From IMG/VR virus record IMGVR_UViG_2778261177_000009, positions 1 through 30,130 of that record: a stretch of DNA of 30,130 bases. One strand, 5' to 3'. Source of the DNA: a virus (Duplodnaviria; Heunggongvirae; Uroviricota; Caudoviricetes). Below are positions 9,329 through 29,072 of this stretch, piece by piece. How positions within the stretch are numbered: the first letter of the stretch is position 1; every line of letters starts with the position of its first letter. Made by a program: the position numbers and the translations under genes. The notes under the pieces are model-generated. The model was not told the origin of the DNA and ran no database searches. It worked only from the letters and a program-made list of their open reading frames with translations.

Positions 9329-9349
9329 AACAAGGCCGCGAAAGCGGCC
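9323..9349 (-). terminator. rho-independent terminator ending the minus-strand ejection-gene operon
   Basis: Stem GGCCGC / GCGGCC (9334..9349) with loop GAAA; on the minus strand it is followed by TTGTTTTAA. Confidence 0.5.
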
Positions 9350-9350
9350 T

Positions 9351-9362
9351 GTGACATGTCAC
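9351..9362. repeat. 12-bp perfect palindrome GTGACATGTCAC, copy 1
   Basis: Exact 12-mer also at 26569..26580 and 28870..28881; here it abuts the terminator hairpin. Confidence 0.6.
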
Positions 9363-9369
9363 GCTCACG

Positions 9370-9510
9370 TTATGACAAGCCTATGTACCCTGCTACACCA
9401 GATAATATCAAAATAACTGCAACAGCAAATTCGCCATCGTCAATGATACATTTGCGGTTCATAACGCCAAGTGCAACAAGCGCAAACACAACAAGAATAA
9501 AAGCAATCAT
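9370..9510 (-). CDS. unannotated 46-aa two-helix membrane peptide coupled to the upstream ejection gene
   Basis: Hand translation: MIAFILVVFALVALGVMNRKCIIDDGEFAVAVILILSGVAGYIGLS; AAGGATGAG RBS; ATG 9 nt after the TAA stop of the 824-aa gene; followed by the GTGACATGTCAC palindrome and the terminator. Too short for the ORF track. Confidence 0.4.
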   Translation of the reverse strand: MIAFILVVFALVALGVMNRKCIIDDGEFAVAVILILSGVAGYIGLS

Positions 9511-9519
9511 TTCTCATCC

Positions 9520-11994
9520 TTATTGCGGAGTGACATCCTGTGGTCGCCACCAGTATGTCTGGTTAAACTCTTTCTTCGAACGTTGCTCCATTTTACGCAA
9601 ATAACCTGGTGAAAAATACTCCTGCATCTGGTTAAAGATCATGTGATCGAGAGCCGCCTTTAAGTACCAGAGATTCGCACCTGGCATCAGACCTTTCCCC
9701 AGCTTAACCAGATCACCACCAGTCTGCTCATTCTTCCCTTCCACAGCATTTAACGGTATGCCCTGAGCAATCTTCACTACGTCATCAACCAGACCAGCTA
9801 CCGGGCCAAGCATCGACGCCAGCGCGCCGCTTCCGTACCTAGTGTGATCTGACAATAAAAAGTCACCATAAAGGCCAAGGCCACCGCCTTTCAGTAACGC
9901 ACCAAGCCAGAATTTTGCGGAATCATCACCGGTCATATCACGCGGGTTCCTGCCTGATGCCATATCGTTTAGTTGCTGCGACAGCGCGCCAAGGATGGTT
10001 GTGCTGGCAATAAACGTCGCAATGTATGCCGCACGACCACCAGCAGACGGCATACCCATAGCGCGCGACCAGTGACGCATGACAACGGAGATCGGAAACG
10101 ACTTAAACAGAAACACACTGCGGGTTAACTCACCTTTCCATGTTCCGCGCTGGATTCCTGAACCAGTAACCATCTGCTCACGCGCACCAGGAGTGATGAC
10201 CGCCATATCCACTTCTTCGGTCACCGCTCCGAGCAGCTTACGCATCGCTTCAAACTTCACGCGTTCCGGTTCTCCCAAGTGCTCTACAGCAGCATCAGGA
10301 ATACGCATGATGCTCTCCGGCGTAAGCATCGTATCGTTACCCTTTCCCCAGTCCTCCTGTTGCGCCAGTTTCCACACACTCCAGTCTGTATCTGTGATCC
10401 CCTTACTTTTCAGTATGCGGAAATCTGCGTCATCGAGACTGCGAAGATCCGGTGTTCTGGTGACAACTTCGCCCAGGCTACCCATCATGGTGACACCATA
10501 GGCACGCTTATGCGCATCTGACCACGCTGTCAGGCCGCTGGCACGCATTACAGCCGTAGCCGCCCAACGGGACACAGAAGGCCCCATATTGTCCATCGCC
10601 CAGCGGTTAACGCTGCCAAGCAGAGATTCCATTGCCAGACCAGCACGACGGGCCCGCGCCAGTTCTGTGCGGTTCGCCGGATTCATCGCCTCTAACTGAT
10701 TCCTGAATAACTGGTTCATTGGCAGGTTGGTAACCTTCGCAGACAGATACATGGTTCCAAGATCAGAGAACGATGACAGCAACGCGGATCCGAGTCTGCT
10801 GGCAACCAGCCAGTTGCGGATATTGTCAGACCATCGCGCGATGTGCGGATTCGCTACAGGCTGTGTCTTTCCGGAAATAAAGTTGTACAGATTCTCTGTG
10901 TTGTTCGCCAGCCGCTCGACTTTACCGGTTTTACTCGGGTTAGCTGTTGCCGTTTCTGCCTTCACCTGATCAAGAAGAGAGCGGAAAACATGATCGGGGT
11001 TTGGGCCATATGTTTCCACCAGTGCAATATCTTTACTGATACCTTCCAGGTGACCGACCATGATTTCCCATAGAGAGCGATCGCCATAAAGTTGCTGATA
11101 TTGCAGATAGGAATCTGCATCTTTGAAATGTATCTGTCGTGATGCATTACCACGGTTAGCACGTGCGCCGGAAATTCGCATTCCGGTATCAGTAAGCTTA
11201 TTCAGCCCACCAGTAGCGATCGTGTTATAAGCCTCTCCAAGAAATGCAGACAACTCGGCATCGTTCATCAGTTGTCCATCGGCTCGGGTATAATATTTGC
11301 GATCCAGCTTACCTATAACATCGCTAACCCACTTATCCTTTGATACCGCCCCAACCTTTTCCATAGAATGATGTTGAGGTATTCCCCAGTTTTCGAGATA
11401 GCCAATGTCCCCACCAGCATCATTAAACCGGCGGCGCAGCAGCTCTGTAACTTCTCTCCACGCCTTAGCACCTTTTCTTGCTTTAGCATTGCCAGTATTT
11501 TGCCCCCGCATTTCATATACCAGGTCACGTACGCCCGCTTCATCTTCAAACAGACCAAAAAAGCGAGGATCAACTGCTTCGAATGCCTCCTGCAATTGAC
11601 TCAATGCATAATCACGAGTGGCTTTTGTTCTGGATTCAACAGAGAGGAAATTCGATTTACCGTCTGCATTAAAAGCAATAGTACGGTTAAGAGCGCCAAG
11701 TTTCCCATCAGCCCCTTGATAGCTATTGATAAATTTATCCAATCTCTGACGTGCGGCTATAGTGAGAGCCACACGACGTTTCTTTAATGCCGCTTCTCGC
11801 TGTAATTCTTCAGATGCCAATTGTGCTGCACGATACAACCGTTCTGATTCGGACAGTTGTCGCCACGACATCGGGTCATCACGAGCAATGGAGCGCATAT
11901 TTCGATAAATGCGGTCTTCAATGTTCTGTATTTCTCGCGCCGTTAACGTGCGCTGCGCCGCCTGCTGGACCGCTTGTATACATTCCTGTCTCAT
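9520..11994 (-). CDS. large internal virion / DNA-ejection protein
   Basis: 824 aa, last of three consecutive very large minus-strand genes between the head-tail genes and the tailspike; assignment by size and position only. Confidence 0.55.
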   Translation of the reverse strand: MRQECIQAVQQAAQRTLTAREIQNIEDRIYRNMRSIARDDPMSWRQLSESERLYRAAQLASEELQREAALKKRRVALTIAARQRLDKFINSYQGADGKLGALNRTIAFNADGKSNFLSVESRTKATRDYALSQLQEAFEAVDPRFFGLFEDEAGVRDLVYEMRGQNTGNAKARKGAKAWREVTELLRRRFNDAGGDIGYLENWGIPQHHSMEKVGAVSKDKWVSDVIGKLDRKYYTRADGQLMNDAELSAFLGEAYNTIATGGLNKLTDTGMRISGARANRGNASRQIHFKDADSYLQYQQLYGDRSLWEIMVGHLEGISKDIALVETYGPNPDHVFRSLLDQVKAETATANPSKTGKVERLANNTENLYNFISGKTQPVANPHIARWSDNIRNWLVASRLGSALLSSFSDLGTMYLSAKVTNLPMNQLFRNQLEAMNPANRTELARARRAGLAMESLLGSVNRWAMDNMGPSVSRWAATAVMRASGLTAWSDAHKRAYGVTMMGSLGEVVTRTPDLRSLDDADFRILKSKGITDTDWSVWKLAQQEDWGKGNDTMLTPESIMRIPDAAVEHLGEPERVKFEAMRKLLGAVTEEVDMAVITPGAREQMVTGSGIQRGTWKGELTRSVFLFKSFPISVVMRHWSRAMGMPSAGGRAAYIATFIASTTILGALSQQLNDMASGRNPRDMTGDDSAKFWLGALLKGGGLGLYGDFLLSDHTRYGSGALASMLGPVAGLVDDVVKIAQGIPLNAVEGKNEQTGGDLVKLGKGLMPGANLWYLKAALDHMIFNQMQEYFSPGYLRKMEQRSKKEFNQTYWWRPQDVTPQ

Positions 11995-11999
11995 TTAAT

Positions 12000-13802
12000 T
12001 TAACCTCTCAAGAAACACGCCACAGCAACATCAAACAGGCTGGAATCCTGTATTGCCTGCTCACTTTCCCTGTTCGCTTCATCCAGTACTTCACGCGCAC
12101 TGCGCGATTGTGGATTACCATCATCATCCAGCACGGTGATTATCATGTCCGGAGATTCAAGCAGCGAGTCTTCAGCTATACGCAGATCAATATCTCCTGC
12201 CGGATCTGCCGTCATTTTTTGTTCTGTCTGTTGCAATATCTTACCGGGCTCAAAAGGAGCTACTTCGTCTGGCGTCCTGACCTCTGCTGTTTTATAGAAT
12301 GAAACAGCCTGAGCATTAAGTTCACTTTCTGCCTGCTGTCGTCGTGCCAGTTCTGCTCGAGCTTCAAAAAACTGACCGCCAGGCTCATGCGGTGCCAACG
12401 CGTTACGGGAAAATTCCAGGCGCTCTTGTGCCTGCCGGATTCGTTGGTCAATATCGCGAAGTCTGACCTGTTTATCTGATCGAGCACGAGACAAAGCTTT
12501 ACCGCTACCGGTTGGCTCTTCTGCAAGAATTTGTGCGCGCTGTTCAGTGAGATTTTCAATAATTCGTTGGCTATTAGCGATTTCAGACTGGTAAACCTGT
12601 CTATCGCCACGCGGCAAAAGCTGCGCGGCCTGTTCTTCAAGCAACCGATTTTCTATAGCGCGCGCCGTTACTCCATCATCTACAGATGACAGAGCCTCAT
12701 TAACTGCCTGAGACAGCAGACTCTTGCGCCCAGGAATTTCACTGAAAGATGCAGACTCAACAATGCTGGCAACGTCTACAGGTCTCCCCTGGCTAACATC
12801 AGACATAGCTTTTCGCAGAGCCTGAATGTGAGAATTGCGCGAAAGCACGTTGATCGGCACGCCGGGCGCAATATCAATTTCAGCATGATGAGCGGCATTC
12901 GCCGCCAGTGCAGCATCAACATCAACTGGTGAAAAATTTGGTGCGCTTGTAGACTCGCCGCGAGAGTTCATAAATCTGCCGACACCACCAAACGCCACCC
13001 CAAGAACAGCATCAATAGCAATTGCCTGTCGATCCAACACATCATACTGGTTAGCCATTTCGCTATAGCCACCATCACGAAGCGTTTTTGCAGTAAGCCC
13101 ACGCTGTGCCATACCGAACGCAATATTTGTACCTGCGGCATAGGCAATATCTGGCGTTGCACGTACTGCTGTTGCTGCGGCGCGTCGCACTGAACTTTCA
13201 CCCGTCCGCGCAAGCTGGGCCGCTACACCTTCCGCCAGCGCACCACCAGCACGTAACCCGAGGCTCATAGGGATCAGTGTTCCGGCACCAGCAGTAATGC
13301 CCTGCACTAATCCCGCTTCCTGCGCCGTCCTGAAATCAACACCCTGTTCTGTCAGCCGTTCAAACTCAGAAAAACCCTGTAGCGAAGTTACCGCCGCTGC
13401 ACCTCCGACAGGACCACCGAGCGTTGTACCGACAACAGCCTGCCCGCCCATATCGAACAACCCATAAAGAACCTGCCCGGCGGTTCCGGTTGTCGCGGCA
13501 TCAGGCGTCAGCCGCTTAACCTGCTGCTCTGCTAGTTTTCTCTGCTCGGCAATGTATGAAACTGAAGTATCATTGAGCGAGGTGTTTTCGTTAACAAACT
13601 GAGCAATCGGGGATACGATTTTATCCATCCCTGCCCATAGCAACTGATCTGGCTTTGCCACCAGCCCGGAGTACAAACCAGACAATGCCGCTCCTACAGC
13701 ATTGTCGAAAAAACCAACATCGCTGTTAAAGCCAGCTGGATTTGATGCTGCTTCGTCAAGCTGCTGATTCTGGTTTACTGGATTAAGGCCAAAGTAACTC
13801 AT
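12000..13802 (-). CDS. internal virion / ejection protein (Gly/Ala-rich)
   Basis: 600 aa with a Gly/Ala-rich central region; start overlaps the stop of the upstream 837-aa gene. Confidence 0.55.
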   Translation of the reverse strand: MSYFGLNPVNQNQQLDEAASNPAGFNSDVGFFDNAVGAALSGLYSGLVAKPDQLLWAGMDKIVSPIAQFVNENTSLNDTSVSYIAEQRKLAEQQVKRLTPDAATTGTAGQVLYGLFDMGGQAVVGTTLGGPVGGAAAVTSLQGFSEFERLTEQGVDFRTAQEAGLVQGITAGAGTLIPMSLGLRAGGALAEGVAAQLARTGESSVRRAAATAVRATPDIAYAAGTNIAFGMAQRGLTAKTLRDGGYSEMANQYDVLDRQAIAIDAVLGVAFGGVGRFMNSRGESTSAPNFSPVDVDAALAANAAHHAEIDIAPGVPINVLSRNSHIQALRKAMSDVSQGRPVDVASIVESASFSEIPGRKSLLSQAVNEALSSVDDGVTARAIENRLLEEQAAQLLPRGDRQVYQSEIANSQRIIENLTEQRAQILAEEPTGSGKALSRARSDKQVRLRDIDQRIRQAQERLEFSRNALAPHEPGGQFFEARAELARRQQAESELNAQAVSFYKTAEVRTPDEVAPFEPGKILQQTEQKMTADPAGDIDLRIAEDSLLESPDMIITVLDDDGNPQSRSAREVLDEANRESEQAIQDSSLFDVAVACFLRG

Positions 13803-16312
13803 TGCGGAATATCTCCGGAGAATCTCTGACGCTTCTGTGTCAGATTAAGAACAACGGGAGAACCATCATCTTTCAGCAGATAACCAGTACCAAGTTTCAC
13901 CAGGTACTGACTATCGCCGTAACTTTGCAAACCATACTGACCAGGCGGTGTTTTTATCCCGGTGCCGACAACTTGTTCATTCCAAGCCTGATTAACCTGC
14001 TTATCGAATTGCTCTGCAGACATTCCCCACGGCAAAAGGACATTCCCCATTCCGTTATAGTCATGCACGCCACCTGTAGCTACGTTAACAGCCTGTTTCC
14101 AGATATCAGTGTCAATTTCGCCTGATATCACGCCTTTTTTCGCCATCACACCAGCGTAATAATCCTTTGCGATCTCGTATGCCATTGATGCTCCCTGAGC
14201 GTCACCAGCAAATGCATCCTTCACCATGTCAGAAAACTCAAGGCGAAGATCAGCATCTTTAGGCATCGGAATACCTTTCGCATCATCAGTACCTTTACGA
14301 GCCGCCGCGCCAGCAAGAATTGTCTGCGCAGCGGTTTCAGGAGACACGGAAACATCCGGATTAAACCAGTTTTTTTCTGCCAAAATACCACCAGGCTTAT
14401 CCATCAGTATCCCGGCAACGGCAGCAGATGGAGCGTTGGCACTGATCTGCTGTAGTGCTGACATATACACCTGCCCACCACCAGTACTCTGCCTGATGGT
14501 ATCGAGATATGCTGCCTGTTGGGAAACTGGAGCATCACGAAAGAAAACACCGATCTGATTGGCCTCGTCTTTGGAAAAGAACGTCAGTGGAGTGCCATAT
14601 GACTTAGCAAGGTCACTGACCTGAGCGGCACGCAAGGCAACACTCTGTCCAAAGTTATCCTTATTGCTCATGTCGATAGGCTTTGCCTGTCCGGCGGCAA
14701 GAGAAAACTGCACAGGATCCGATTGCCGCTGCTTTATCACCTGATTTGCAGCCGAAACAACGTTGCCATAAAGAGCTGCGCGTGCCGCATACCCCTCCCC
14801 TGTCTCACCAGTATCCGGGCGTAATTGCTCAACATATGCGGTAATGCTGCTTGTCGGCATGTTGCGGAAAGAGCCTATATACTGTCCGGCGATCTGCGTA
14901 TTTCTGAACTCGGTATATCGCAGGTTTCCTTCTCTGACGCCATAAGCTGCAATAAAATCATCCTCACCTGGTGGGTTAGGAAATTCAACGCCACGCATAT
15001 ACGCAGCCGTCGCATCGCGAACCTTGCTGTCAATTATCGTTTTATATTCAGCCTGCTGCTGCCGACGCAGTTGATCCGCCTGTCGCATAAAACTTGCCTG
15101 AGCCTCAGGAGATGCCGCATCGAATGCTGCATTACCGGTATAACGTTTGGTGTTGGTTGGAATTGTTGATAAACCAAGTGCTGCACTGACACCAGCAGTT
15201 AACTGCTGATCACTGTATGGCTGACTACCGTTCTCATGATGGATAATGGCTGCACAAAGCGCCTTCAGAGTATCAGGATTTGATGCATCAAGAGGCTCAT
15301 CAGCAGAAACGCCAAGTTGTTCGCACACTGCTTTGATATACGACATAGTGTCATTTTTATCAGTAGGCGGTGCCCAGCGATTAATTATCTCGCTGACGGT
15401 ATCAATACCCTGCCGCTGATACGACATCAGGTTCCGCCCTAATGCACGAATCCCGTGTTCAGGTGTTTCGAATTTAGCAAATCTACCATCATCACCGGTC
15501 TGGCCTACCCACGGATTAGTTTTGCTGTATTCGAGATTTCCGGGGTTATTGTTGCGTATGCCACGGACACGCTCGGAAGAGCCACTATCTGCTACAGCAC
15601 GGCGAGCTCCAGCAGCAGTATCACTTAACTCGCCATTACTTTGGATGAATGCGGTCGCATTGTTTGCCGACCACTGGGACAATGCTGCATCAGCAACCTT
15701 CTCTTTAAACTCGATTTTCTTGGCCTGTATTTGCTCGTCGCTCCAGCCATGTGCAGCACCGTACTCCTCAATTTGCTGGAAAGTTTGCTTATTAGCCAAT
15801 ACGTATGCGGCATTGTCGCCATACAATGCTGCGGCATTTTTACCATTGTTCAGCAGCGTCGCCTGAAACTGACCTTCTTCGTAGGCATTAATTTGCCCTA
15901 TCTCGTGCCGCCCGGCCTGCGTAGTGAACTGAATGCGCTGCTGCTGTGCCTGCTGCATGAAAGCATTACGAGCCTGTTCATCCGGCAGCGACATAGCCAG
16001 TTGCTCGACCTGGGCATCAAACTGCTGCGTATACTCCTGACCTTTTCCAATAGCATTTTTCCCTTTCAGGTTAAGCAAACCTGTTTCAGGGTTATTCAGC
16101 AGATCGCTGCTTATCTGGCTTAAGCTAAGAGAAGCATCCTGAGCCATAGCAACATTCGCACGCTGTTTTGCCTGCGCAATAATACCTGCATATTGCTCTG
16201 CAACGTCGCCAAGTACATCACCGACATTTGGTGTCTGAAACGATGAGAATCCCTGCGTCGAAATCCCTCTGCTCTGAACCTGACGGCCCGATGTTGTTGG
16301 TACAACTGGCAT
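13799..16312 (-). CDS. large internal virion / ejection protein, possibly with a cell-wall-degrading domain
   Basis: 837 aa; contains a motif RGIRNNNPGNLEY recalled from virion-associated peptidoglycan hydrolase-like proteins. Domain call is low confidence. Confidence 0.55.
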   Translation of the reverse strand: MPVVPTTSGRQVQSRGISTQGFSSFQTPNVGDVLGDVAEQYAGIIAQAKQRANVAMAQDASLSLSQISSDLLNNPETGLLNLKGKNAIGKGQEYTQQFDAQVEQLAMSLPDEQARNAFMQQAQQQRIQFTTQAGRHEIGQINAYEEGQFQATLLNNGKNAAALYGDNAAYVLANKQTFQQIEEYGAAHGWSDEQIQAKKIEFKEKVADAALSQWSANNATAFIQSNGELSDTAAGARRAVADSGSSERVRGIRNNNPGNLEYSKTNPWVGQTGDDGRFAKFETPEHGIRALGRNLMSYQRQGIDTVSEIINRWAPPTDKNDTMSYIKAVCEQLGVSADEPLDASNPDTLKALCAAIIHHENGSQPYSDQQLTAGVSAALGLSTIPTNTKRYTGNAAFDAASPEAQASFMRQADQLRRQQQAEYKTIIDSKVRDATAAYMRGVEFPNPPGEDDFIAAYGVREGNLRYTEFRNTQIAGQYIGSFRNMPTSSITAYVEQLRPDTGETGEGYAARAALYGNVVSAANQVIKQRQSDPVQFSLAAGQAKPIDMSNKDNFGQSVALRAAQVSDLAKSYGTPLTFFSKDEANQIGVFFRDAPVSQQAAYLDTIRQSTGGGQVYMSALQQISANAPSAAVAGILMDKPGGILAEKNWFNPDVSVSPETAAQTILAGAAARKGTDDAKGIPMPKDADLRLEFSDMVKDAFAGDAQGASMAYEIAKDYYAGVMAKKGVISGEIDTDIWKQAVNVATGGVHDYNGMGNVLLPWGMSAEQFDKQVNQAWNEQVVGTGIKTPPGQYGLQSYGDSQYLVKLGTGYLLKDDGSPVVLNLTQKRQRFSGDIPQ

Positions 16313-16324
16313 CTTATTATCCCC

Positions 16325-20733: not shown

Positions 20734-20777
20734 TCCTGCAATAAAGGGGCCGAAGCCCCTTGTCTCATCCGCGAGGC

Positions 20778-21122: not shown

Positions 21123-21123
21123 C

Positions 21124-21561: not shown

Positions 21562-21612
21562 CTTCTTTCTCCATTAGTGGGTCTGTTACGACCCACAGGT
21601 TAATAACAGGCG

Positions 21613-22605: not shown

Positions 22606-22613
22606 TTCCTCTC

Positions 22614-23315: not shown

Positions 23316-23608
23316 TCCTGTTCACTGGCCTCTTTGGCCATCTTCAAATACTGTTCAGGGCAATGCGCCATAACGCGCTGAAACAGTTCCAGCGCCAGAT
23401 TGCGTTGCCCCTCATTAAATGCCATTGCCATAGCGTCCATCGGTGAGATAGCGGAAAACACACGGCCTTTCTCCAGCACCGACCAGACAACGCGACGCCC
23501 CTGTTCACTGCTCATGACAAAGCGAATGTCATCAATTTCACGCTGTGCCATGTCACGTTGCTTACGGGCGTTTTCTTCTTTCAGTTGATCGTCTTCGTAA
23601 TCTGTCAT
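23312..23608 (-). CDS. small head-assembly-associated protein
   Basis: 98 aa; overlaps the portal stop and scaffold start. Confidence 0.45.
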   Translation of the reverse strand: MTDYEDDQLKEENARKQRDMAQREIDDIRFVMSSEQGRRVVWSVLEKGRVFSAISPMDAMAMAFNEGQRNLALELFQRVMAHCPEQYLKMAKEASEQE

Positions 23609-25284
23609 TGTGATTGCCCACCCTGACCACTAACTGCATTCGCCATAGCTGACAAAACACTCGGATCCGAAGTTTTAGCTTCGCTTAGCGTCTTGGCCCC
23701 CTGTGCCGCCGCCATCCCCATCGCCATCATTTGTTGCTGCTGTTGCTGCTGTGCCCGTTGCTGGCGCGCCTGCTCAACCTGTTCCTGCGGAACAATGACG
23801 GTTGGAGACACTCCGGACATATCAGCGAATGCATCGATCGCCTGATCAACGTTGAGTTTGTCGAGAGCTTCTGGTTTCGCTTGCGCAAGTTGACCAATGA
23901 AGTTAACCGTGGACGCGAGACTGGACAGGCCGATAGACTTCTGCGCCTGAGCCATGACGGAAATGTATTCGACCTTCAGGGGCATACCTTCCATCGCGTC
24001 AGGCGGTGGTGGCAGCATGTTTTTACGCACCATCATCGAGAAAGCGCGGTCAATGAGAGGATTAAGACATTCGTCGTTCAGACGCTCCAGAACCGGCCCC
24101 AACATCAGAAGTTTTTCTTCTTTCATTTCGATCACTGCTTCAACAGGCATCGAGCGGGTATTGATGTTCTGCAACATCATGAACAGATCGACAAAGTAGG
24201 CGCTGTTAATGATTTGGCGAGTGTCCTGAATGTCTGCTACCAGATCTGCTGTACTGGGGTTAACCAGATAAGCAGGCCTGAAACCATCCTGACCAGTAAT
24301 CTGATCGATATACGTGATGTCGCCAGGAAGAAGGGAGGCGCGCTGATTCTTGAGGGAAGTCGGAGCAACCATCGGCGGATTGGTGGCTTTATCAATCAAC
24401 TGCGACTTGCGCTTCTGGAGAAGCTGCAATGCCTTAACAGGTCCAAGCGCCAGCATACCCGGGCATGATGAACCATAAACATCTTCGCCGTTAACTTCCC
24501 AGCGCGGAGCCATAATTGGAAACTCATCGAATCCGGACTCACGCAACAACTTGTCGTTATCGCCACCAACCTCGTAATAAACCGATTTGAATGGCTTGTT
24601 CTTGCTATCCAACTTCGATGTGTCGCGGTCAATGTTCGGGTAAACCGAATGCATCACTTCAACCCACTTCTCGTAGGTGCCGCTTTCCCACATGCTTTTT
24701 ACGGATTCGCTGACGTTATTTAGCCCGAACTCCTGAACAAGCTGACGAACAGTCATAGAGAACTTGCGAAAACAGGTGTCAACACTGCCACGAGGTGAGT
24801 TAGCCAGGTAGTAACTGCCTATCGGGAATGGCATTGTGCGAATGATGTCCTCATCATCCTCCAGTACCGCCATTGCACCGGTGCTGTATGTGCCGAGGCT
24901 TCCGTATAACTGCGGCAGCGACTGATAGAGATTCGACTTATTGAACATATCGTTCATGCGGTTCTGCACCGCCTCAAGCCACAACTTAACAGGGCCATAA
25001 TCCATCATTTCAGGATCTGGCGTAGCCAGGCGAAACCACGGACGCGCGGGGCTTGTGATGCCTGACATCATGCCGCTGGCGAGAGTGCGCGCCGCCATGG
25101 TCCCGGTCGAATCAATAATGCGTGTATTGCGCCGATCGTTACGGTTGGCCTCAGAAGTCAGAAAGCGGGAACCACGCGGGTTGATGTAATCACTCAACTC
25201 GCGCCAGTGCGGCTCGAACGACTGACGCTCGCTTTCAAGTTGTGCGAACTGTTTGTTCAATCGCTCTTTAGTTGTTTCCGCCAT
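23605..25284 (-). CDS. portal protein
   Basis: 559 aa; first large gene of the head module after the terminase genes; Gln/Ala-rich C-terminal tail. Confidence 0.7.
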   Translation of the reverse strand: MAETTKERLNKQFAQLESERQSFEPHWRELSDYINPRGSRFLTSEANRNDRRNTRIIDSTGTMAARTLASGMMSGITSPARPWFRLATPDPEMMDYGPVKLWLEAVQNRMNDMFNKSNLYQSLPQLYGSLGTYSTGAMAVLEDDEDIIRTMPFPIGSYYLANSPRGSVDTCFRKFSMTVRQLVQEFGLNNVSESVKSMWESGTYEKWVEVMHSVYPNIDRDTSKLDSKNKPFKSVYYEVGGDNDKLLRESGFDEFPIMAPRWEVNGEDVYGSSCPGMLALGPVKALQLLQKRKSQLIDKATNPPMVAPTSLKNQRASLLPGDITYIDQITGQDGFRPAYLVNPSTADLVADIQDTRQIINSAYFVDLFMMLQNINTRSMPVEAVIEMKEEKLLMLGPVLERLNDECLNPLIDRAFSMMVRKNMLPPPPDAMEGMPLKVEYISVMAQAQKSIGLSSLASTVNFIGQLAQAKPEALDKLNVDQAIDAFADMSGVSPTVIVPQEQVEQARQQRAQQQQQQQMMAMGMAAAQGAKTLSEAKTSDPSVLSAMANAVSGQGGQSQ

Positions 25285-25298
25285 TTCAATGACTCCGG

Positions 25299-25505
25299 TT
25301 ACTGACCAAGCAGCGTTTTACCGCTGGTATTAGCGGTTGATGTGTCGCCCTGAGAACCGGTAAGCAGCGTAGAACTACGACCAGCAGCAGCGCGACGGCG
25401 ACGTGTTTCTTCGTCGCGGGCATCAACAACGGCGGCATCCTGCTCCTGTGGTGCTGCCTGAACTTCTGGTGTTGCAGGCACTGATGGTGAGCTACCCATG
25501 CACAT
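25299..25505 (-). CDS. small Ala/Gln/Ser-rich protein preceding the portal
   Basis: GGAG RBS 8 nt upstream of the ATG; 68 aa, low complexity; stop is 15 nt from the portal start. Confidence 0.4.
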   Translation of the reverse strand: MCMGSSPSVPATPEVQAAPQEQDAAVVDARDEETRRRRAAAGRSSTLLTGSQGDTSTANTSGKTLLGQ

Positions 25506-25573
25506 ATCAATGACTCCGTACGCAATTAAATTATTACCAATTTAACCACATATGTTTTATTTATCGTAGGCAG

Positions 25574-25602
25574 TTGACATTTAACGCACGAATTATTACC
25601 TT
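25574..25602 (+). promoter_or_regulatory. sigma70-like promoter (TTGACA, 17-bp spacer, TACCTT) overlapping palindrome site D
   Basis: Perfect -35 hexamer TTGACA at 25574..25579; the TAnnnT hexamer TACCTT at 25597..25602 lies inside the palindrome; oriented toward the tRNA and the plus-strand ORF. Confidence 0.45.
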
Positions 25603-25611
25603 TAAGGTAAC
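25595..25611. promoter_or_regulatory. TTACC-N5-GGTAA palindrome, site D (ATTACCTTTAAGGTAAC)
   Basis: Same motif as sites A-C; lies between the portal-proximal gene (start 25505) and the tRNA island. Confidence 0.5.
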
Positions 25612-25932
25612 CAAAGAGCTCATTCCGGTTACTAACCTGACTGGCTTGTCGTTAAATTGAACAGGTGGAGTGAGCTTTTATTTTGAGCAGTACGGCGTAT
25701 GGCACATGCGCCGATAGCGGTCTGGATACGTTTAAGGGGCACCCTCCCTTGCTCGGGCAAACGAACCAGGTAGCCGGAATGTGCAAGTCGAGCGGTTTTA
25801 TTCCGCGCACGGGGATTCACCATCCCGGCGATTCGGTGTGACGCCTCGGAAGAGACGAGGGTACAACGATGAGAGCATTTATGGAGCCGCGACAAAGTGT
25901 GGTGCCTTAACAGGCTAAGTGCTCTCAGCGTT

Positions 25933-26009
25933 GTGGCATTAGCTCAGTCGGACAGAGCAACCGCCTTCTAAGCGGTTGGTCGCAGGTTCGAATCCTGCAT
26001 GCCACGCCA
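25933..26009 (+). tRNA. tRNA-Arg (anticodon UCU), phage-borne
   Basis: Hand-folded cloverleaf: acceptor GTGGCAT/ATGCCAC, D-stem GCTC/GAGC, anticodon stem ACCGC/GCGGT with loop CTTCTAA, T-arm GCAGG-TTCGAAT-CCTGC, discriminator G and encoded CCA. T-arm matches E. coli argU as recalled. Confidence 0.85.
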
Positions 26010-26052
26010 GAATCACGCCTAAGGACCGTGATGCCAGAAGTTCCAGGTGCTT

Positions 26053-26094
26053 GGCGGTGATGGTTTCCCTTGAAGAACTATCACCGCCCTTTTT
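26053..26094 (+). terminator. hairpin terminator downstream of the tRNA
   Basis: 9-bp stem GGCGGTGAT / ATCACCGCC with 18-nt loop followed by CTTTTT. Confidence 0.45.
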
Positions 26095-26172
26095 ACAGCA
26101 GGACGCCATTGCGATGACTTCATGCTGTAAACCAGTACAGCCACGGAAGGCATAACTCATTGCTTCCAGTTC

Positions 26173-26196
26173 GCCCGGTTCGCCGGGCATTTTTTT
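26173..26196 (+). terminator. strong intrinsic terminator 12 nt upstream of the ORF at 26208
   Basis: Stem GCCCGG / CCGGGC with loop TTCG followed by ATTTTTTT, ending just before the RBS AAGGTGAG. Confidence 0.55.
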
Positions 26197-26207
26197 AAGG
26201 TGAGATT

Positions 26208-26564
26208 ATGAACGACCAGCAAATAGAAAAAGAAATCGTTGAGAAAGGAAAAACCGCTCCGCGAGTTACGCCCCAATATATCGAAAGCATCATTCTTGAA
26301 GAGCATTTCTTTACTGCTTATGACGGTATTCGTGCCGCCAGTATGGGCGTTGGCGATACGTGGACAGCGCATAAATCTACAGACCTCCTTACTTTCTGCG
26401 TACTGGTGCTGAAGAATGGCTTCACCGTCACCGGAGAGAGCGCATGTGCAAGCCCGGAAAACTTTGATGCAGAAATTGGTCGGAAGATTGCCCGGCAGAA
26501 TGCTGTAAACAAAATCTGGATGCTTGAAGGTTACTTGCTGAAGCAGAAGTTAAGCGAGCAATAA
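26208..26564 (+). CDS. conserved small phage protein, possibly N4 Gp49 / Sf6 gp66-like (moron)
   Basis: AAGGTGA RBS; 118 aa; plus-strand gene inside a minus-strand module with its own terminator; family call from recall is uncertain. Confidence 0.55.
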   Translation: MNDQQIEKEIVEKGKTAPRVTPQYIESIILEEHFFTAYDGIRAASMGVGDTWTAHKSTDLLTFCVLVLKNGFTVTGESACASPENFDAEIGRKIARQNAVNKIWMLEGYLLKQKLSEQ

Positions 26565-26568
26565 CACC

Positions 26569-26580
26569 GTGACATGTCAC
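26569..26580. repeat. 12-bp perfect palindrome GTGACATGTCAC, copy 2
   Basis: Exact repeat of 9351..9362; sits 4 nt upstream of the terminator hairpin. Confidence 0.6.
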
Positions 26581-26583
26581 AAA

Positions 26584-26612
26584 CAGCCAGCCTATGAGCT
26601 GGCTTTGTTTTA
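26584..26612 (+). terminator. rho-independent terminator of the plus-strand moron
   Basis: Stem AGCCAGC / GCTGGCT with loop CTATGA followed by TTTGTTTT. Confidence 0.6.
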
Positions 26613-26654
26613 TCCTCACCAGAGGATATCAACGACATTATCCCCACCAGCGGA

Positions 26655-28130
26655 TTAAGCATAGGGATCGTAATCTGTAATGGCCTTTCCTTGCTGGTTC
26701 TGCTGACCTGGAATTCGCAGACGCTTCGACACAGGGAAAGCAAACGTCAGCAATAGCGCATCGCCTTTACCCGGCGAACGCCCAAGCCGCTCCTTGATAT
26801 CTTCCTTCGGTTCGATAACGATTTTACCGTCCACTCGAACTTTGTACTCTGCCGCCGACAGGTCGTCCGCTGTTTCCTGGTCATCAAGCATCCCGCCCAG
26901 CCTCAGCCATGTCTTGCATGAGTTGAACATCTCCCCACGCTTGTTGAGCATCTGCGGGTCAGTAGACGCGCCACCGAACGGAACAAGTTGCCATGTGCGC
27001 CCCCAACCGTCACCGATTGACTTCAGACCGGTACCGTAACCAAAGTCGATGAACACTGCGTCAGCCTGATACAGGTCTTCAAAGTCAGCGATACGCTTCG
27101 CCATAATCAGATCGTCGGTAGTCTTGTTGCCAGTCCACAGCACCTTACTGTGTAGCCCCTGCCGCAGGTATATCACCGCGTCATCAACGCCTAAATATGC
27201 CGGGTCAACACCGATTATCACCGGAGCATGCGCCACCTGCGCAGCGGTTACCACCCGTTTCATTGCCTCATCAGTAAGACCGGTAGGGATAAACTGCAAT
27301 TCAGATGCATCAGGGAATATGCCGCGCACACGGATTTTAACGAAGTAGCTGTCTTCCCCGTAGTCATCAACCCATTTCTGCAACTGCTGTTTGTTAGTGC
27401 CTTCCACCGTCCGGCTGTCAATCTGCGCAGTTTTCCAGCGGTGTTTATATTTGCGGAAACATTCGCGGAAACGCCCGGTGTTACGTGTAGGGTTTCCGAA
27501 CGCCACCCAGATAATCTCAGTGTCTTCGTCCGTAAGCGCACCCTCAGCAACTTCCCACACCAGATCCGCAATGTTCGACGCTTCATCGAATACCACGATG
27601 ATGCGTTTGCGCTCGTTGTGTAGTCCGGCGAATGCCTCAGTGTTGTGCTCAGACCAGGGGATTGCGTCAGCTCGCCACCGCTTGTCGTGCCCAGGATCAT
27701 TGCTGTACATCGCGGTAGCGGTACAGGTAAACCAGTCTTTCGTGATAGCAAGGTTCGACCACTTGATAATTTCCGGCCAGGTCTTCGTTCGTAGCTGGTT
27801 GTCGGTGTTGGCAGTCACCACGACCTTACAATCCTCGCAAGTGGACATGCCCCAGTTGATCAGCATTGAGATGAATGCGGATTTACCAATACCGTGACCA
27901 GAAGCGCGTGCCAGCATAAGCGGCTGATAGCGCGTCTCTGGATTCTGCAGGTGATCACGTATCTCTCGGAACGCATCAGCCTGCCACTGACGTGGGCCGG
28001 TGGCATGTGCCAGTTCAGTCCCCTCTTCCCCCCACGGGAACGCATAGAGGGCATAGCCAAGCGGATCGTGAGTGAACCCTGCAATATCCTCGATCAACTG
28101 CTCTTCAGGAGATAACGCTGTATCTGTCAC
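26655..28130 (-). CDS. terminase large subunit
   Basis: 491 aa; Walker A-like GHGIGKS and Walker B-like IIVVFDEAS; start overlaps the stop of the upstream small gene as in terS-terL pairs; precedes the portal. Confidence 0.75.
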   Translation of the reverse strand: MTDTALSPEEQLIEDIAGFTHDPLGYALYAFPWGEEGTELAHATGPRQWQADAFREIRDHLQNPETRYQPLMLARASGHGIGKSAFISMLINWGMSTCEDCKVVVTANTDNQLRTKTWPEIIKWSNLAITKDWFTCTATAMYSNDPGHDKRWRADAIPWSEHNTEAFAGLHNERKRIIVVFDEASNIADLVWEVAEGALTDEDTEIIWVAFGNPTRNTGRFRECFRKYKHRWKTAQIDSRTVEGTNKQQLQKWVDDYGEDSYFVKIRVRGIFPDASELQFIPTGLTDEAMKRVVTAAQVAHAPVIIGVDPAYLGVDDAVIYLRQGLHSKVLWTGNKTTDDLIMAKRIADFEDLYQADAVFIDFGYGTGLKSIGDGWGRTWQLVPFGGASTDPQMLNKRGEMFNSCKTWLRLGGMLDDQETADDLSAAEYKVRVDGKIVIEPKEDIKERLGRSPGKGDALLLTFAFPVSKRLRIPGQQNQQGKAITDYDPYA

Positions 28131-28759
28131 TGATTACCATCCTGACGTTCTTTGAGTCGCTTCCTGGCTGCTGCTATGCGATCAGCAATTGTCACATTCA
28201 CATTAACATCCAGACGTTCTTTGAACGCGTTAACGTCGACGTGCTTACCGATGAGCTCGAGGTTTTTCACCTTGTCGGGCCATTTCACCTTCTTCAGGAT
28301 ATGCTCGACATCCTCAACAGAGAGATCCGCCTCGCCATTCTCTTTTTGCAGGGAAGCCTGGGTTGTCTTGATGGTAGCGATATCCATAGCACTGAGAGAG
28401 GTACGCCAGACCTTCGGCCATTCAGCGATCGGCTTCATCCCGCCGTCATCGTTCAGTATATCCAGCACGTCCATCTGGTCGATCTCCACCAGGCGCATGA
28501 GAACGTAATCAGCACTGACGCGCATTCGTTTGTTGCGCTCCTCCATCAACTCGGCAATCCGTTTTTGAATGCGTTCATCGCGCATCATGACACTGGCTTT
28601 AACTGCCGCTGTATTTGGGGAGAATCCTGCGTTAATCGCTGCCTGAGTCTGGTTTTCAGGCGTTTTGATGTATGACTGGCAATAAGCCTCCTGCATTGCT
28701 GTTAGTGGCTTAAATTGCGTTGATTTGCGTTTATAGGTTTTAGGTTCAGCAGGCATCAT
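28127..28759 (-). CDS. terminase small subunit (putative)
   Basis: Immediately upstream of and overlapping terL. Start taken as the first ATG (MMPAEPK) with GGTGG RBS; the ORF track extends to a TTG at 28837 across a tandem repeat, which is judged non-coding leader. Confidence 0.5.
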   Translation of the reverse strand: MMPAEPKTYKRKSTQFKPLTAMQEAYCQSYIKTPENQTQAAINAGFSPNTAAVKASVMMRDERIQKRIAELMEERNKRMRVSADYVLMRLVEIDQMDVLDILNDDGGMKPIAEWPKVWRTSLSAMDIATIKTTQASLQKENGEADLSVEDVEHILKKVKWPDKVKNLELIGKHVDVNAFKERLDVNVNVTIADRIAAARKRLKERQDGNQ

Positions 28760-28776
28760 AACCACCGTGGTAATAG

Positions 28777-28791
28777 TTACCGTTGTGGTAA
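28777..28791. promoter_or_regulatory. TTACC-N5-GGTAA palindrome, site E (TTACCGTTGTGGTAA)
   Basis: Formed at the junction of a tandem 18-bp direct repeat (GTGGTAATAGTTACC / GTGGTAATAGTACC, 28767..28798); 18-32 bp upstream of the proposed terS start. Confidence 0.4.
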
Positions 28792-28869
28792 TAGTACCAT
28801 GCAAAATAAAGCCGCCATAGTTGGCGGCAGTATTCAAAACCCGTCAAATTCATCATGCATAATCTACTC

Positions 28870-28881
28870 GTGACATGTCAC
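28870..28881. repeat. 12-bp perfect palindrome GTGACATGTCAC, copy 3
   Basis: Exact repeat; in the gap between the nin-like genes and terS. Confidence 0.6.
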
Positions 28882-29072
28882 ACTATTAATTTCGTTTCAT
28901 GCCAGCCTTTAGTCACCCAGCATTGCGAGTCACCATTACACGGGCATGAATTAACTGGAACTCTCTCGCCGCACTTACCGCAACGTTTTCTGCTGATCGA
29001 TTTTATACGCCCGCGCACACGTGCACCATCCAGATAGGCACATCCGTCCGCAATTAACACATATAGGCCACA

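What the first reader, a model, noticed from the sequence alone, without database searches (positions are those of the whole stretch)
9351..28881. Three exact copies of the 12-bp palindrome GTGACATGTCAC at module boundaries
An exact 12-mer is not expected to recur even once by chance in 30 kb, yet three copies occur at 9351, 26569 and 28870. They mark junctions between blocks: the end of the ejection-gene operon, the moron/terL boundary, and the gap upstream of terS. Two copies sit 2-4 nt on the 5' side of a terminator hairpin that ends TTTGTTTT. The element could be a protein-binding site, part of a composite terminator, or a conserved boundary sequence that mediates module exchange.
Basis: seen in the sequence. 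Interest (0 to 1): 0.5.

Follow-up and report, generated by a model that had tools for sequence, protein, structure and literature searches.

The report
Conserved palindrome tied to phage regulator
The three copies of GTGACATGTCAC are real and conserved, and they travel through many unrelated temperate phages together with one small uncharacterised regulator gene whose stop codon lies inside one copy, so they are most likely that protein's DNA-binding sites, marking the ends of transcription units.

Summary
In detail: GTGACATGTCAC occurs exactly at 9351, 26569 and 28870, against about 0 expected. The window is a phiV10/epsilon15-like podophage (Uetakevirus). The same 12-mer sits at the same three places in relatives that are only about 78% identical.

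The element tracks a gene. Copy 28870 contains the TGA stop codon of the p55/gp49 gene (PHROG 536, "transcriptional regulator", no Pfam family). In 76 of 76 evaluable loci chosen by that protein, the palindrome lies at its stop.

Unrelated phages with a 31-65% identical homologue (ZF40, phiKO2, Vibrio K303, a P2-like Yersinia phage) also carry GTGAC-N2-GTCAC. Three of them have three copies each, against 0.02-0.06 expected. The half-sites never change; the central 2 bp do.

My best reading is that this is the operator of a dimeric phage DNA-binding protein, placed at operon ends, probably acting as a transcriptional roadblock, insulator or autoregulatory site. Binding was not tested.

Homology breakpoints cluster at the palindromes (22-fold), so "module boundary" holds as a correlation. 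The half-sites equal those of host matS (MatP site), but the spacer is 1 bp shorter.

In this window p55 is truncated. I found no publication describing the motif.

The parts
28870..28881 (.). Palindrome copy a. It contains the TGA stop codon (28880-28878, - strand) of the p55-family gene remnant and lies upstream of terS.
   Evidence: The equivalent copy is present in phiV10, epsilon15, Tyrion, SPN1S, 65FD and a Klebsiella prophage. It is present in 76/76 loci chosen by p55 and in 65/68 loci chosen by terL.
28881..29030 (-). Remnant of the p55/gp49-family regulator gene (PHROG 536). Only residues 63-112 (the Cys-rich C-terminal half) are kept; the N-terminal basic helix and the beta-alpha-alpha part are deleted in this window.
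   Evidence: tblastn gives 96% identity over residues 63-112 only. Related E. coli prophages carry DUF4752-ASCH-p55-terS at this place.
28811..28830 (-). Hairpin plus T run between copy a and the terS coding sequence (terminator-like).
   Evidence: The equivalent hairpin is annotated as a terminator in epsilon15 at 39646-39672.
26569..26580 (.). Palindrome copy b, at the convergent junction between terL (- strand) and the inserted accessory (moron) gene (+ strand). It starts 4 nt after that gene's stop codon.
   Evidence: It is conserved in relatives and present in 59/68 terL-chosen loci. Many different convergent genes all end 3-4 nt from it.
26585..26613 (+). Hairpin AGCCAGC...GCTGGCT plus TTGTTTTAT, 4 nt 3' of copy b. 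It is a strong terminator for the accessory-gene strand and a weak one (GTTTG tail) for the terL strand.
   Evidence: phiV10 annotates the same hairpin as a terminator.
26208..26564 (+). Accessory (moron) gene of Pfam family PF13876 (N4 gp49 / Sf6 gp66 family), whose 3' end abuts copy b.
9351..9362 (.). Palindrome copy c, at the convergent junction between the end of the late (ejection-protein) operon (- strand) and the end of the antirepressor operon (+ strand).
   Evidence: It is conserved in phiV10 (19493), epsilon15 (19517), Tyrion (20377), SPN1S (19662) and 65FD (39566).
9325..9350 (-). Hairpin AGGCCGC-TTTC-GCGGCCT plus TGTTTTAA, directly 3' of copy c on the - strand. It is the terminator of the late operon; in the + direction the palindrome occupies the place where a T run would be.
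   Evidence: It is annotated as a terminator in phiV10 and epsilon15.
9370..9510 (-). Last late gene (46-aa membrane protein, phrog_7892). Its stop codon is 8 nt upstream of copy c.
5423..5434 (.). GTGACGGGTCAC: intact half-sites with a different centre, inside the tailspike ORF. Whether it is functional is unknown.

Best explanation
GTGACATGTCAC (more generally YGTGAC-N2-GTCACR) is most likely the cognate DNA recognition site of the phage-encoded p55/gp49 protein family (PHROG 536). This is a roughly 112-aa protein with an N-terminal basic helix, a beta-alpha-alpha segment that looks like a ribbon-helix-helix (RHH) fold, and a conserved Cys-rich C-terminus. It probably binds as a symmetric dimer.

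In phiV10/epsilon15-like phages the sites lie at the 3' ends of transcription units:
- on the regulator's own stop codon, at the end of the early-right operon, just before terS;
- at each of the two convergent junctions (terL against the accessory gene; late operon against the antirepressor operon). There the site occupies the side of the shared hairpin that has no T run.

The proposed action is inferred, not shown. The bound protein would act as a transcriptional roadblock or insulator. It would limit read-through out of its own operon, which would also autoregulate it, as LacI does at the O3 operator in the 3' end of lacI. It would also stop transcription that enters a convergent operon from the direction in which the hairpin is a poor terminator.

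Because the site is kept while neighbouring cargo genes are exchanged, mosaic breakpoints pile up at its edges.

In this particular window the regulator gene has lost its N-terminal half. The sites are then either served from elsewhere or are recent orphans.
For: SHOWN
- Three exact copies against about 0 expected.
- The same 12-mer sits at the three equivalent intergenic places in epsilon15, SPN1S, Tyrion, 65FD, phiV10 and a Klebsiella prophage, although coding DNA is only about 78-82% identical.
- The palindrome lies at the stop codon of p55 homologues in 76/76 evaluable IMG/VR loci chosen by the protein. This holds whatever follows the gene: a terminator, a ribosome-binding site plus gene, or a LexA-box promoter. 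It holds down to about 46% amino-acid identity.
- In loci chosen by terL, 68/68 carry p55, 65/68 have site a and 59/68 have site b.
- Unrelated phages that carry a homologue also carry the half-sites. Myovirus ZF40 has three copies of TGTGACATGTCACA. N15-like phiKO2 has three copies of GTGACTGGTCAC. Vibrio siphovirus K303 has three copies of GTGAC(GC/AC)GTCAC. Each count compares with 0.02-0.06 expected. In ZF40 and phiKO2 one copy lies at or next to the homologue's stop codon; in K303 none does (the nearest is 226 nt downstream).
- The P2-like Yersinia phage has TGTGACGCGTCACA on the homologue's stop codon, plus a second imperfect copy. An Aeromonas phage homologue (30% identity) has a degenerate copy, ATGACATGGCAC, on its stop codon. 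Lambda, which has no homologue, has none.
- The half-site GTGAC is invariant while the central 2 bp vary (AT, CT, AC, GC, TG). That fits two-fold readout of duplex DNA better than a hairpin kept by covariation.
- The RNA hairpin is weak: -1.2 to -2.8 kcal/mol, against -7.9 for lambda boxB.
- The PHROG label is 'transcriptional regulator'. The predicted secondary structure is helix-strand-helix-helix. Two divergent members give weak hits to the NCBIfam model PRK11675, 'LexA regulated protein'.

PRECEDENT
- A single RHH dimer (ArtA) reads a roughly 10-bp site (PMC2777438).

INFERRED
- The roadblock/insulator role rests on placement at operon ends.
Against: - No binding was tested.
- The AlphaFold2 monomer model is poor (pLDDT 57). 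Foldseek, Pfam and PDB profile searches give nothing, so the RHH assignment is weak.
- Phage BUCT708 has two exact palindromes but no detectable p55 homologue.
- The SPN1S clade has replaced the N-terminal basic helix, and this window has lost the whole N-terminal half, yet all sites are intact.
- The beta-strand residues differ among distant homologues that share the same half-site.
- Geometry gives no obvious synergy between a roadblock and the adjacent hairpin.
- In ZF40 two sites lie inside genes in the early region, not at operon ends, so the function may differ between phages.
- 7 of 68 relatives lack site b.
Confidence: 0.5

Rival explanations
1. The palindrome works in RNA. It would be a 3'-UTR or intercistronic operator (UGUGA-CAUG-UCACR mini-hairpin) bound by p55 through its arginine-rich N-terminus or zinc domain. 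It would control the adjacent terminator (antitermination or termination, like RAT/LicT or nut/N) or the translation of the next gene (like phage Mu Com or MS2 coat protein).
For: In the window and its relatives all three copies lie inside transcribed 3' ends, upstream of a hairpin with a U run on the strand where that terminator works. In many other loci the palindrome directly abuts the Shine-Dalgarno sequence of the next gene. The p55 N-terminus (AERKAAQRARQ) resembles arginine-rich RNA-binding motifs; this comparison is from my own knowledge.
Against: The hairpin is only 4-5 bp with a 4-nt loop, at -1.2 to -2.8 kcal/mol. There are no compensatory changes: the stem sequence is invariant from Vibrio to Escherichia phages. 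Positions 5 and 8 (C and G) would lie in the loop yet stay complementary, as expected for two-fold DNA half-sites. No Rfam family overlaps the sites.
Confidence: 0.15
2. The sites are recognised by the host Ter-macrodomain protein MatP, or p55 is a phage mimic or competitor of MatP. The half-sites are identical to matS (GTGACRNYGTCAC). The phage would use them to position, condense or insulate its DNA, or to interfere with MatP/MukBEF handling.
For: The matS consensus is GTGACRNYGTCAC (PMC6907758). MatP is itself an RHH protein (my own knowledge). Phages with p55 homologues infect Enterobacterales, Vibrio and Aeromonas; MatP/matS are reported for enterobacteria and vibrios (PMC4177673). BUCT708 keeps palindromes without p55. 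K303 also carries one perfect matS 13-mer.
Against: The spacer is 2 bp, not 3, in every conserved copy. True matS is absent from 500 Escherichia/Salmonella prophages and is thought to be counter-selected there (PMC3603311); that argues against MatP-binding sites in a prophage integrated outside Ter. p55 shows no detectable sequence similarity to MatP. The link to the p55 gene would remain unexplained if the host protein were the only reader.
Confidence: 0.12
3. The palindrome is a recombination or boundary sequence that itself mediates exchange of gene cassettes (an attC-like or homing target), which would explain why it sits at mosaic junctions.
For: HSP ends are enriched 22-fold within 15 nt of the copies. 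At site b at least eight unrelated convergent genes all end 3-4 nt from the palindrome. At sites a and c one flank is conserved and the other is highly variable.
Against: No recombinase is associated with it. Each junction has a single copy, not a flanking pair. 12 bp is too short for homologous recombination. In ZF40, phiKO2 and L058-type phages copies lie inside conserved coding sequences rather than at cassette ends. A conserved functional site next to swappable cargo predicts the same breakpoint pattern.
Confidence: 0.08
4. The palindrome is an integral part of composite intrinsic terminators (an upstream element that strengthens hairpin-dependent termination) with no dedicated protein.
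For: Spacing to the hairpin is 0-4 nt at two sites and is conserved although the hairpin sequences differ between clades. Terminator-like hairpins with T runs were predicted and are annotated in relatives.
Against: At site a the distance is 22-38 nt and variable. Many copies in other phages have no terminator nearby. An upstream element would not need exact 12-bp two-fold symmetry, nor would it co-occur with one protein family.
Confidence: 0.07

Closest known systems
matS, the 13-bp site of the E. coli Ter-macrodomain organiser MatP (GTGACRNYGTCAC)
   Same: Both have identical 5-bp inverted half-sites GTGAC/GTCAC and a variable centre. Both occur as a few dispersed copies per replicon. MatP reads its site as an RHH dimer, and p55 has an RHH-like secondary-structure pattern. 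The host range of p55 phages overlaps the MatP clade.
   Different: The spacer is 2 bp, not 3, so the site is 12 bp with an even-numbered symmetry axis. The sites lie on phage DNA, at gene ends. p55 has no detectable sequence similarity to MatP and carries a Cys-rich C-terminus instead of MatP's four-helix bundle and coiled coil. True matS is absent from prophages.
The lac O3 operator in the 3' end of lacI (roadblock producing truncated lacI mRNA and tmRNA tagging; from my own knowledge, Abo et al. 2000)
   Same: The operator overlaps the 3' end of the regulator's own gene. Binding would block the polymerase at the end of the gene and limit both the regulator and read-through into the next unit.
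   Different: Here the site covers the stop codon itself and is repeated at two other operon ends. No looping partner next to a promoter is evident. Nothing is shown experimentally.
Operators of small ribbon-helix-helix repressors (P22 Arc/Mnt, CopG, pSK41 ArtA)
   Same: The site is a short (10-13 bp) symmetric sequence that one dimer could read. ArtA binds a roughly 10-bp ACATGACATG core as a single dimer (PMC2777438). The setting is a phage or plasmid.
   Different: Those operators overlap promoters (the -35 element for ArtA). The window's sites lie at 3' ends and convergent junctions, with no conserved promoter. The RHH fold of p55 is unproven.
Lambda nut/boxB with N, and Q with its binding element (antitermination sites placed ahead of terminators; the regulator is the last gene of the early-right operon)
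   Same: The regulator gene is the last early-right gene, directly upstream of the late genes, and site a precedes a terminator in front of terS. ZF40 has one site in each early operon, as nutL and nutR are placed.
   Different: There is no stable stem-loop and no boxA. The sequence is a perfect DNA palindrome. ZF40 and phiKO2 already have a separate Q-like protein. Sites b and c would drive read-through into antisense DNA.
SlmA-binding sequence (GTGAGTACTCAC)
   Same: Both are 12-bp palindromes sharing GTGA....TCAC.
   Different: SlmA needs G at position 5 and prefers a pyrimidine at position 6 (PMC3020112). The phage site has C and A at those positions, so this match is rejected.

Membership tests
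matS / MatP site | Inverted half-sites GTGAC and GTCAC | tested here: met
   All three window copies and all conserved copies in the other phages have them. The consensus is from PMC6907758.
matS / MatP site | 13-bp site with a 3-bp R-N-Y spacer | tested here: not met
   The spacer is 2 bp in every conserved copy. No GTGAC-N3-GTCAC occurs in the window or in seven Uetakevirus genomes.
matS / MatP site | Bound by MatP; confined to the Ter macrodomain | not testable with these tools
   No binding data are available. The sites are on phage DNA. Prophages of Escherichia and Salmonella lack true matS (PMC3603311).
MatP protein family (for p55) | Detectable homology to MatP (Pfam MatP domains; RHH core) | tested here: not met
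   BLASTP gives E=1.3. hhalign gives probability below 1% with two different p55 profiles. There is no Pfam hit.
Ribbon-helix-helix repressor with its operator | Short two-fold symmetric DNA site of about 8-13 bp | tested here: met
   The site is a 12-bp perfect palindrome that extends to YGTGACATGTCACR.
Ribbon-helix-helix repressor with its operator | Cognate protein with a beta-alpha-alpha fold forming a dimer | tested here: inconclusive
   The predicted order is helix, short strand, two helices, but pLDDT is only 57. There are no Foldseek, PDB or Pfam matches. Two members give weak NCBIfam hits (E about 0.05) to PRK11675, 'LexA regulated protein'.
Ribbon-helix-helix repressor with its operator | Operator overlaps the regulated promoter | tested here: not met
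   No promoter element is conserved at a fixed distance. The right flank of site a varies among at least 8 types. Sites b and c lie at convergent 3' ends.
Intrinsic (rho-independent) terminator, composite form | The element forms part of the GC-rich stem or U tract | tested here: not met
   The palindrome lies outside the stems, 0-4 nt (sites c, b) or 22-38 nt (site a) upstream. Its own RNA hairpin is worth only -1.2 to -2.8 kcal/mol.
nut/boxB-type or RAT-type antiterminator RNA | Stable stem-loop kept by compensatory changes, on the transcript ahead of a terminator | tested here: not met
   The position ahead of terminators is met in the window. But the stem is weak and its sequence is invariant, with no covariation across hosts. 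No Rfam match was found.
SlmA-binding sequence | G, T, A, G at positions 1, 2, 4, 5 and a pyrimidine at position 6 | tested here: not met
   Position 5 is C and position 6 is A. The requirement is from PMC3020112.
Packaging site or physical genome end | The genome ends map to the sequence | tested here: not met
   The phiV10 and Tyrion records are opened inside the palindrome only because each record ends at (phiV10) or 2 nt after (Tyrion) the stop codon of its last gene. The epsilon15 record is opened 49 nt further on. There are three copies per genome, and copies occur in phages with other terminases.

The most novel reading that the evidence does not exclude
p55 and its GTGAC-N2-GTCAC sites form a phage-borne counterpart of the host MatP/matS system. 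The reading is of the same half-sites at a spacing one base pair shorter, so the host protein would not bind them (or the phage protein would compete for them). The system would spread as a portable gene-plus-site unit through podo-, myo- and siphoviruses, N15-like plasmid prophages and P2-like phages of the MatP-bearing bacteria. Its job would be to organise or insulate the phage chromosome, or to interfere with MatP/MukBEF-dependent handling of DNA, rather than to act as a classical promoter repressor.
Probability: 0.12. Interest if true: 0.85.

Novelty: new member of a known kind. Interest (0 to 1): 0.55.

Why it matters
If the pairing holds, it gives a function and a defined DNA target to a protein family with hundreds of members. 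All 120 homologues listed (of 720 found) that carry any source name are called 'hypothetical protein' or 'phage protein'. The family is present in all 68 evaluable phiV10/epsilon15-like phage loci sampled. It also occurs in Vibrio, Klebsiella, Yersinia, Pectobacterium and Aeromonas phages.

The pairing would also explain where transcription units end in this phage group, whose gene regulation has hardly been studied. It gives a concrete reason why mosaic junctions fall where they do.

An operator sitting on the regulator's own stop codon, and at the T-run-less side of shared hairpins, is an unusual layout. It can be tested directly.

The identity of the half-sites with matS raises a cheap, decisive question: does the host protein, the phage protein, or both bind, and does the 1-bp spacing decide which?

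Practically, phiV10- and SPN1S-type phages are used as reporter and biocontrol phages. Insertions are often made at exactly these intergenic junctions.

Tried and rejected
- Genome end or pac site. The phiV10 and Tyrion records open inside the palindrome, but this follows the convention of ending the record at (or 2 nt after) the last stop codon. The epsilon15 record opens elsewhere.
- SlmA site. Rejected on positions 5 and 6.
- CRP/FNR-type site. The spacing between GTGA and TCAC is 4 bp, not 6 (my own knowledge).
- Prophage repressor operator. The epsilon15 record annotates a different palindrome (ATTACC-N5-GGTAAT) as the repressor site and does not annotate this one.
- Late promoter with the palindrome as the -35 element. 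GTGACA followed 17-18 bp later by a weak -10 can be drawn at site a. It is not conserved across the variable right flanks, and nothing comparable exists at sites b and c.
- A degenerate fourth copy at the Rz stop codon in epsilon15 and SPN1S. It is not conserved in the window.
- Structure route. The AlphaFold2 monomer was poor, Foldseek against the PDB gave nothing, and the PDB profile search gave nothing. Pfam, NCBIfam and PADLOC gave no significant family.
- p55 against MatP. Not significant.
- Literature. No paper in the searchable corpus holds any of the 12-mers in a phage context. The MatP-matS structure paper could not be read.
- Looking for Uetakeviruses without p55, to see whether the sites decay. 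None were found among 68 loci.
- Count of the 12-mer in a host chromosome. Not possible with these tools, because collection scans need at least 14 specified bases.
- IMG/VR scan of the 14-mer. It also returned 46 loci with no phiV10-like protein or p55-family hit within the stretch retrieved. Most were coding-sequence coincidences repeated among related contigs. A few were arrays of GTCACG-like repeats that I did not pursue.

Full report
**1. Observation**

GTGACATGTCAC occurs exactly three times in the window, at 9351, 26569 and 28870. None of 100 dinucleotide-preserving shuffles contains a single copy. Allowing two mismatches adds 23545 (GTGCCATGTCAC, in a coding region) and 5423 (GTGACGGGTCAC). 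With the centre left free (GTGACNNGTCAC) there are four matches against 0.02 expected.

- Copy 26569 is 4 nt 5' of a + strand hairpin followed by TTGTTTTAT.
- Copy 9351 directly abuts a - strand hairpin followed by TGTTTTAA.
- Copy 28870 lies 38 nt upstream (on the - strand) of a third hairpin with a T run, which precedes the terS coding sequence.

**2. What the window is**

The window is a phiV10/epsilon15-like temperate podophage (genus Uetakevirus) with the late genes on the - strand. It is about 97-98% identical to phiV10 over the head genes and about 78% identical to epsilon15.

In phiV10 coordinates the three places are:
- (a) between the last gene of the early-right operon (p55) and terS;
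- (b) between the terL terminator and the 3' end of a convergent inserted accessory ('moron') gene;
- (c) between the last late gene (p21) and its terminator, opposite the convergent antirepressor operon.

**3. Conservation**

The same 12-mer occupies the same three places in several relatives:

| Phage | Positions | Notes |
|---|---|---|
| epsilon15 | 2142, 19517, 39612 | |
| SPN1S | 2174, 19662, 38653 | |
| Tyrion | 2702, 20377, 41755 | last copy wraps the record end |
| 65FD | 16702, 19880, 39566 | 16702 has one central mismatch |
| phiV10 | 2262, 19493, record junction | junction copy has one mismatch |

The phiV10 and Tyrion records are opened inside the palindrome. This only reflects ending the record at, or 2 nt after, the stop codon of the last gene. 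It is not evidence for a physical genome end.

The epsilon15 GenBank record annotates terminators, IHF sites and a different palindrome (ATTACC-N5-GGTAAT, labelled 'repressor'). It does not annotate this element. No paper in the searchable corpus contains the 12-mer or its variants in a phage context.

**4. The element tracks a gene**

In all these phages the TGA inside copy (a) is the stop codon of p55 (epsilon15 gp49). p55 belongs to PHROG 536, labelled 'transcriptional regulator'. It has no Pfam family.

A scan of IMG/VR for TGTGACATGTCACG showed that the palindrome follows p55 homologues whatever comes next. What follows may be a terminator plus terS, a ribosome-binding site plus another gene, or a LexA-box promoter. 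This holds down to about 46% amino-acid identity.

Two samples that were not chosen by the motif confirm the link:
- In 80 loci chosen by the protein, 76 of 76 evaluable have the exact 12-mer at the gene's end.
- In 68 evaluable loci chosen by terL, all carry p55. Of these, 65 have site a and 59 have site b with intact half-sites.

**5. Unrelated phages**

Phages of quite different types that encode a homologue also carry the half-sites:

| Phage | Type | Identity to p55 | Sites | Position relative to the homologue |
|---|---|---|---|---|
| ZF40 | Pectobacterium myovirus | 65% | 3 x TGTGACATGTCACA | one copy 3 nt after its stop |
| phiKO2 | N15-like plasmid prophage | 37% | 3 x GTGACTGGTCAC | one copy on its stop codon |
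| K303 | Vibrio siphovirus | 31% | 3 x GTGAC(GC/AC)GTCAC | none at its stop (nearest is 226 nt downstream); one copy 19 nt upstream of terS |
| vB_YenM_56.17 | P2-like Yersinia phage | 42% | TGTGACGCGTCACA plus an imperfect copy 27 nt later | first copy on its stop codon |
| 13AhydR10PP | Aeromonas phage | 30% | degenerate ATGACATGGCAC only | on its stop codon |
| Lambda | no homologue | none | none | not applicable |

For ZF40, phiKO2 and K303 the shuffle expectation is 0.02-0.06 per genome. Across all of these phages the half-site GTGAC never changes, while the central dinucleotide does (AT, CT, AC, GC, TG).

**6. DNA or RNA?**

Several points favour sequence-specific reading of duplex DNA by a symmetric dimer:
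- The half-sites are invariant and show no compensatory changes.
- The symmetry extends to the flanking Y/R positions.
- Positions 5 and 8 stay complementary although they would lie in an RNA loop.
- The RNA hairpin is weak: -1.2 to -2.8 kcal/mol, against -7.9 for lambda boxB.
- No Rfam family overlaps the sites.

The RNA reading keeps some weight. In this phage group every copy lies in a transcribed 3' end ahead of a terminator. Elsewhere it often abuts the next gene's Shine-Dalgarno sequence.

**7. The protein**

p55 has three recognisable parts:
- a conserved N-terminal basic helix (AERKAAQRARQ);
- a short strand and two helices in the order expected for a ribbon-helix-helix domain;
- a conserved Cys-rich C-terminus (CxxC-x8-CxC-x5-C).

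The AlphaFold2 monomer model is poor (pLDDT 57), as an obligate dimer might be. Foldseek, the PDB profile search and Pfam gave nothing. Two divergent members give weak hits (E about 0.05) to the NCBIfam model PRK11675, 'LexA regulated protein'. The DNA-binding fold is therefore an inference.

ArtA of plasmid pSK41 shows that one RHH dimer can read a site of about 10 bp (PMC2777438).

**8. Placement and likely action**

In Uetakeviruses the sites mark the ends of transcription units. The starts of those units carry the other palindrome, ATTACC-N5-GGTAAT.

At the two convergent junctions the palindrome always lies on the side of the shared hairpin that has no T run. This holds although the hairpin sequences differ between clades.

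I therefore favour a roadblock or insulator role:
- At sites b and c it would block polymerases arriving from the direction in which the hairpin terminates poorly.
- At site a it would limit read-through from the early-right operon into terS. It would also autoregulate p55 by truncating its own message, as LacI does at O3 in the 3' end of lacI (my own knowledge).

This step is inferred. Three things argue against a general rule. The geometry gives no obvious synergy with the hairpin. In ZF40 two sites lie inside early genes, always read as x-D-M-S-x. ZF40 and phiKO2 also have separate Q-like antiterminators, so p55 is not the general late activator.

**9. Module boundaries**

BLASTN of the window against all related loci gives 850 HSP ends. 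Of these, 78 lie within 15 nt of a palindrome, against 3.6 expected.
- At site b at least eight unrelated convergent genes all stop 3-4 nt from the palindrome.
- At site a the p55 side is conserved and the terS side is highly variable.
- At site c the late-gene side varies and the hairpin side is conserved.

Whether the sequence causes the exchange is not shown. Selection for a functional site amid exchangeable cargo gives the same pattern.

**10. Comparison with known sites**

The half-sites are identical to those of matS, the 13-bp site of the host Ter-macrodomain protein MatP (GTGACRNYGTCAC; PMC6907758). MatP is an RHH protein (my own knowledge). The spacer here is 2 bp, not 3, in every conserved copy. 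None of the Uetakevirus genomes has a true matS.

Bobay et al. found no matS in 500 Escherichia and Salmonella prophages and argued that it is counter-selected there (PMC3603311). p55 shows no detectable similarity to MatP. So this is not a matS site and p55 is not a demonstrable MatP homologue. The resemblance is still close enough to deserve a direct binding test.

The SlmA site (GTGAGTACTCAC) is excluded, because SlmA needs G at position 5 and prefers a pyrimidine at position 6 (PMC3020112).

**11. Caveats specific to this window**

Only residues 63-112 of p55 are encoded here (29030-28881). Related E. coli prophages carry DUF4752-ASCH-p55-terS, so the window has a deletion of roughly 0.4 kb that removes the ASCH gene and the N-terminal half of p55. 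The three sites are nevertheless intact. Either the deletion is recent, or an intact copy lies outside the window, or the sites do not depend on p55.

Two further caveats apply:
- The SPN1S clade has replaced the basic helix yet keeps all sites.
- BUCT708 has two exact palindromes and no p55 homologue.

These are the main reasons for keeping confidence at about 0.5.

**12. Verdict**

The best-supported interpretation is a conserved protein-recognition site paired with an uncharacterised, widely distributed phage regulator. In this phage group the site is placed at operon ends and coincides with mosaic junctions.

It is a new member of a known kind (a regulator-operator pair) with an unusual layout and an intriguing matS-like sequence. 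Interest is moderate to high. The decisive experiments are simple gel-shift, ChIP and Term-seq tests.

Noticed in passing
window 5974, 7094, 7187, 8202, 25595, 28758, 28776: A second repeated palindrome, ATTACC-N5-GGTAAT (0-1 mismatches). It lies at the starts of transcription units: upstream of the tailspike gene, in the antirepressor region, upstream of the portal operon, and at the start of terS. The epsilon15 GenBank record labels the equivalent sites 'repressor' binding sites.
   Followed up: partly
window 28881-29072: The p55-family gene is truncated to its C-terminal 50 codons and joined to a DUF4752 gene (29073-29354). Related E. coli prophages have an ASCH-domain gene and a full p55 in between, so the window carries a deletion of about 0.4 kb. 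This junction (about 29025) is also the strongest hotspot of BLASTN alignment ends in the window.
   Followed up: yes
window 7239-7315 and 7340-7424 (+): Rfam matches above the gathering score to the isrK Hfq-binding sRNA and the C4 antisense RNA (P1/P7 immI type). Both lie directly upstream of the AntA-type antirepressor gene (7474-8130), which suggests antisense-RNA control of ant in this podophage.
   Followed up: no
window 6027-6046: A LexA-box-like sequence, TACTGTATAAATATACAGTT, between the tailspike gene start and the first ORF of the antirepressor operon. It matches the SOS-controlled ant arrangement known from SPC32H-type phages (my own knowledge).
   Followed up: no
window 25933-26009 (+): A tRNA-Arg (anticodon TCT) in the inserted accessory-gene region between terL and the portal operon. 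It is also annotated in E. coli O157 typing phage 9.
   Followed up: partly
window 28811-28837 (- strand): The terS ORF as listed (and as annotated in phiV10) starts at a TTG that overlaps a terminator-like hairpin with a T run. The real start is more likely the ATG just after the T run (about 28804), so the hairpin would sit in the leader.
   Followed up: no
window 23545-23556; phiV10 (L001) 5306: A one-mismatch copy (GTGCCATGTCAC on the + strand, GTGACATGGCAC on the coding strand) inside the small gene after the portal gene. It recurs in 30 related loci, probably because the coding sequence is conserved.
   Followed up: partly
L026, L045, L055, L060, L074, L112 (IMG/VR loci): Unrelated viral contigs in which the 14-mer sits inside arrays of GTCACG/CGTGAC-like repeats (for example ...catgtcacgcccctgtcacgccctgtcacgcgtgacgctGTGACATGTCAC...). 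These may be iterons or sites of another protein that reads a similar half-site.
   Followed up: no
L208 (ZF40) 5125 and 7622; L058 6515; L215 (BUCT708) 32255: When the palindrome lies inside a gene it is always read in the same frame, as x-Asp-Met-Ser-x. This occurs in two unrelated gene families: a CII-like activator and an early-left gene. The CII-like gene of BUCT708 lacks the palindrome at the equivalent codons.
   Followed up: partly
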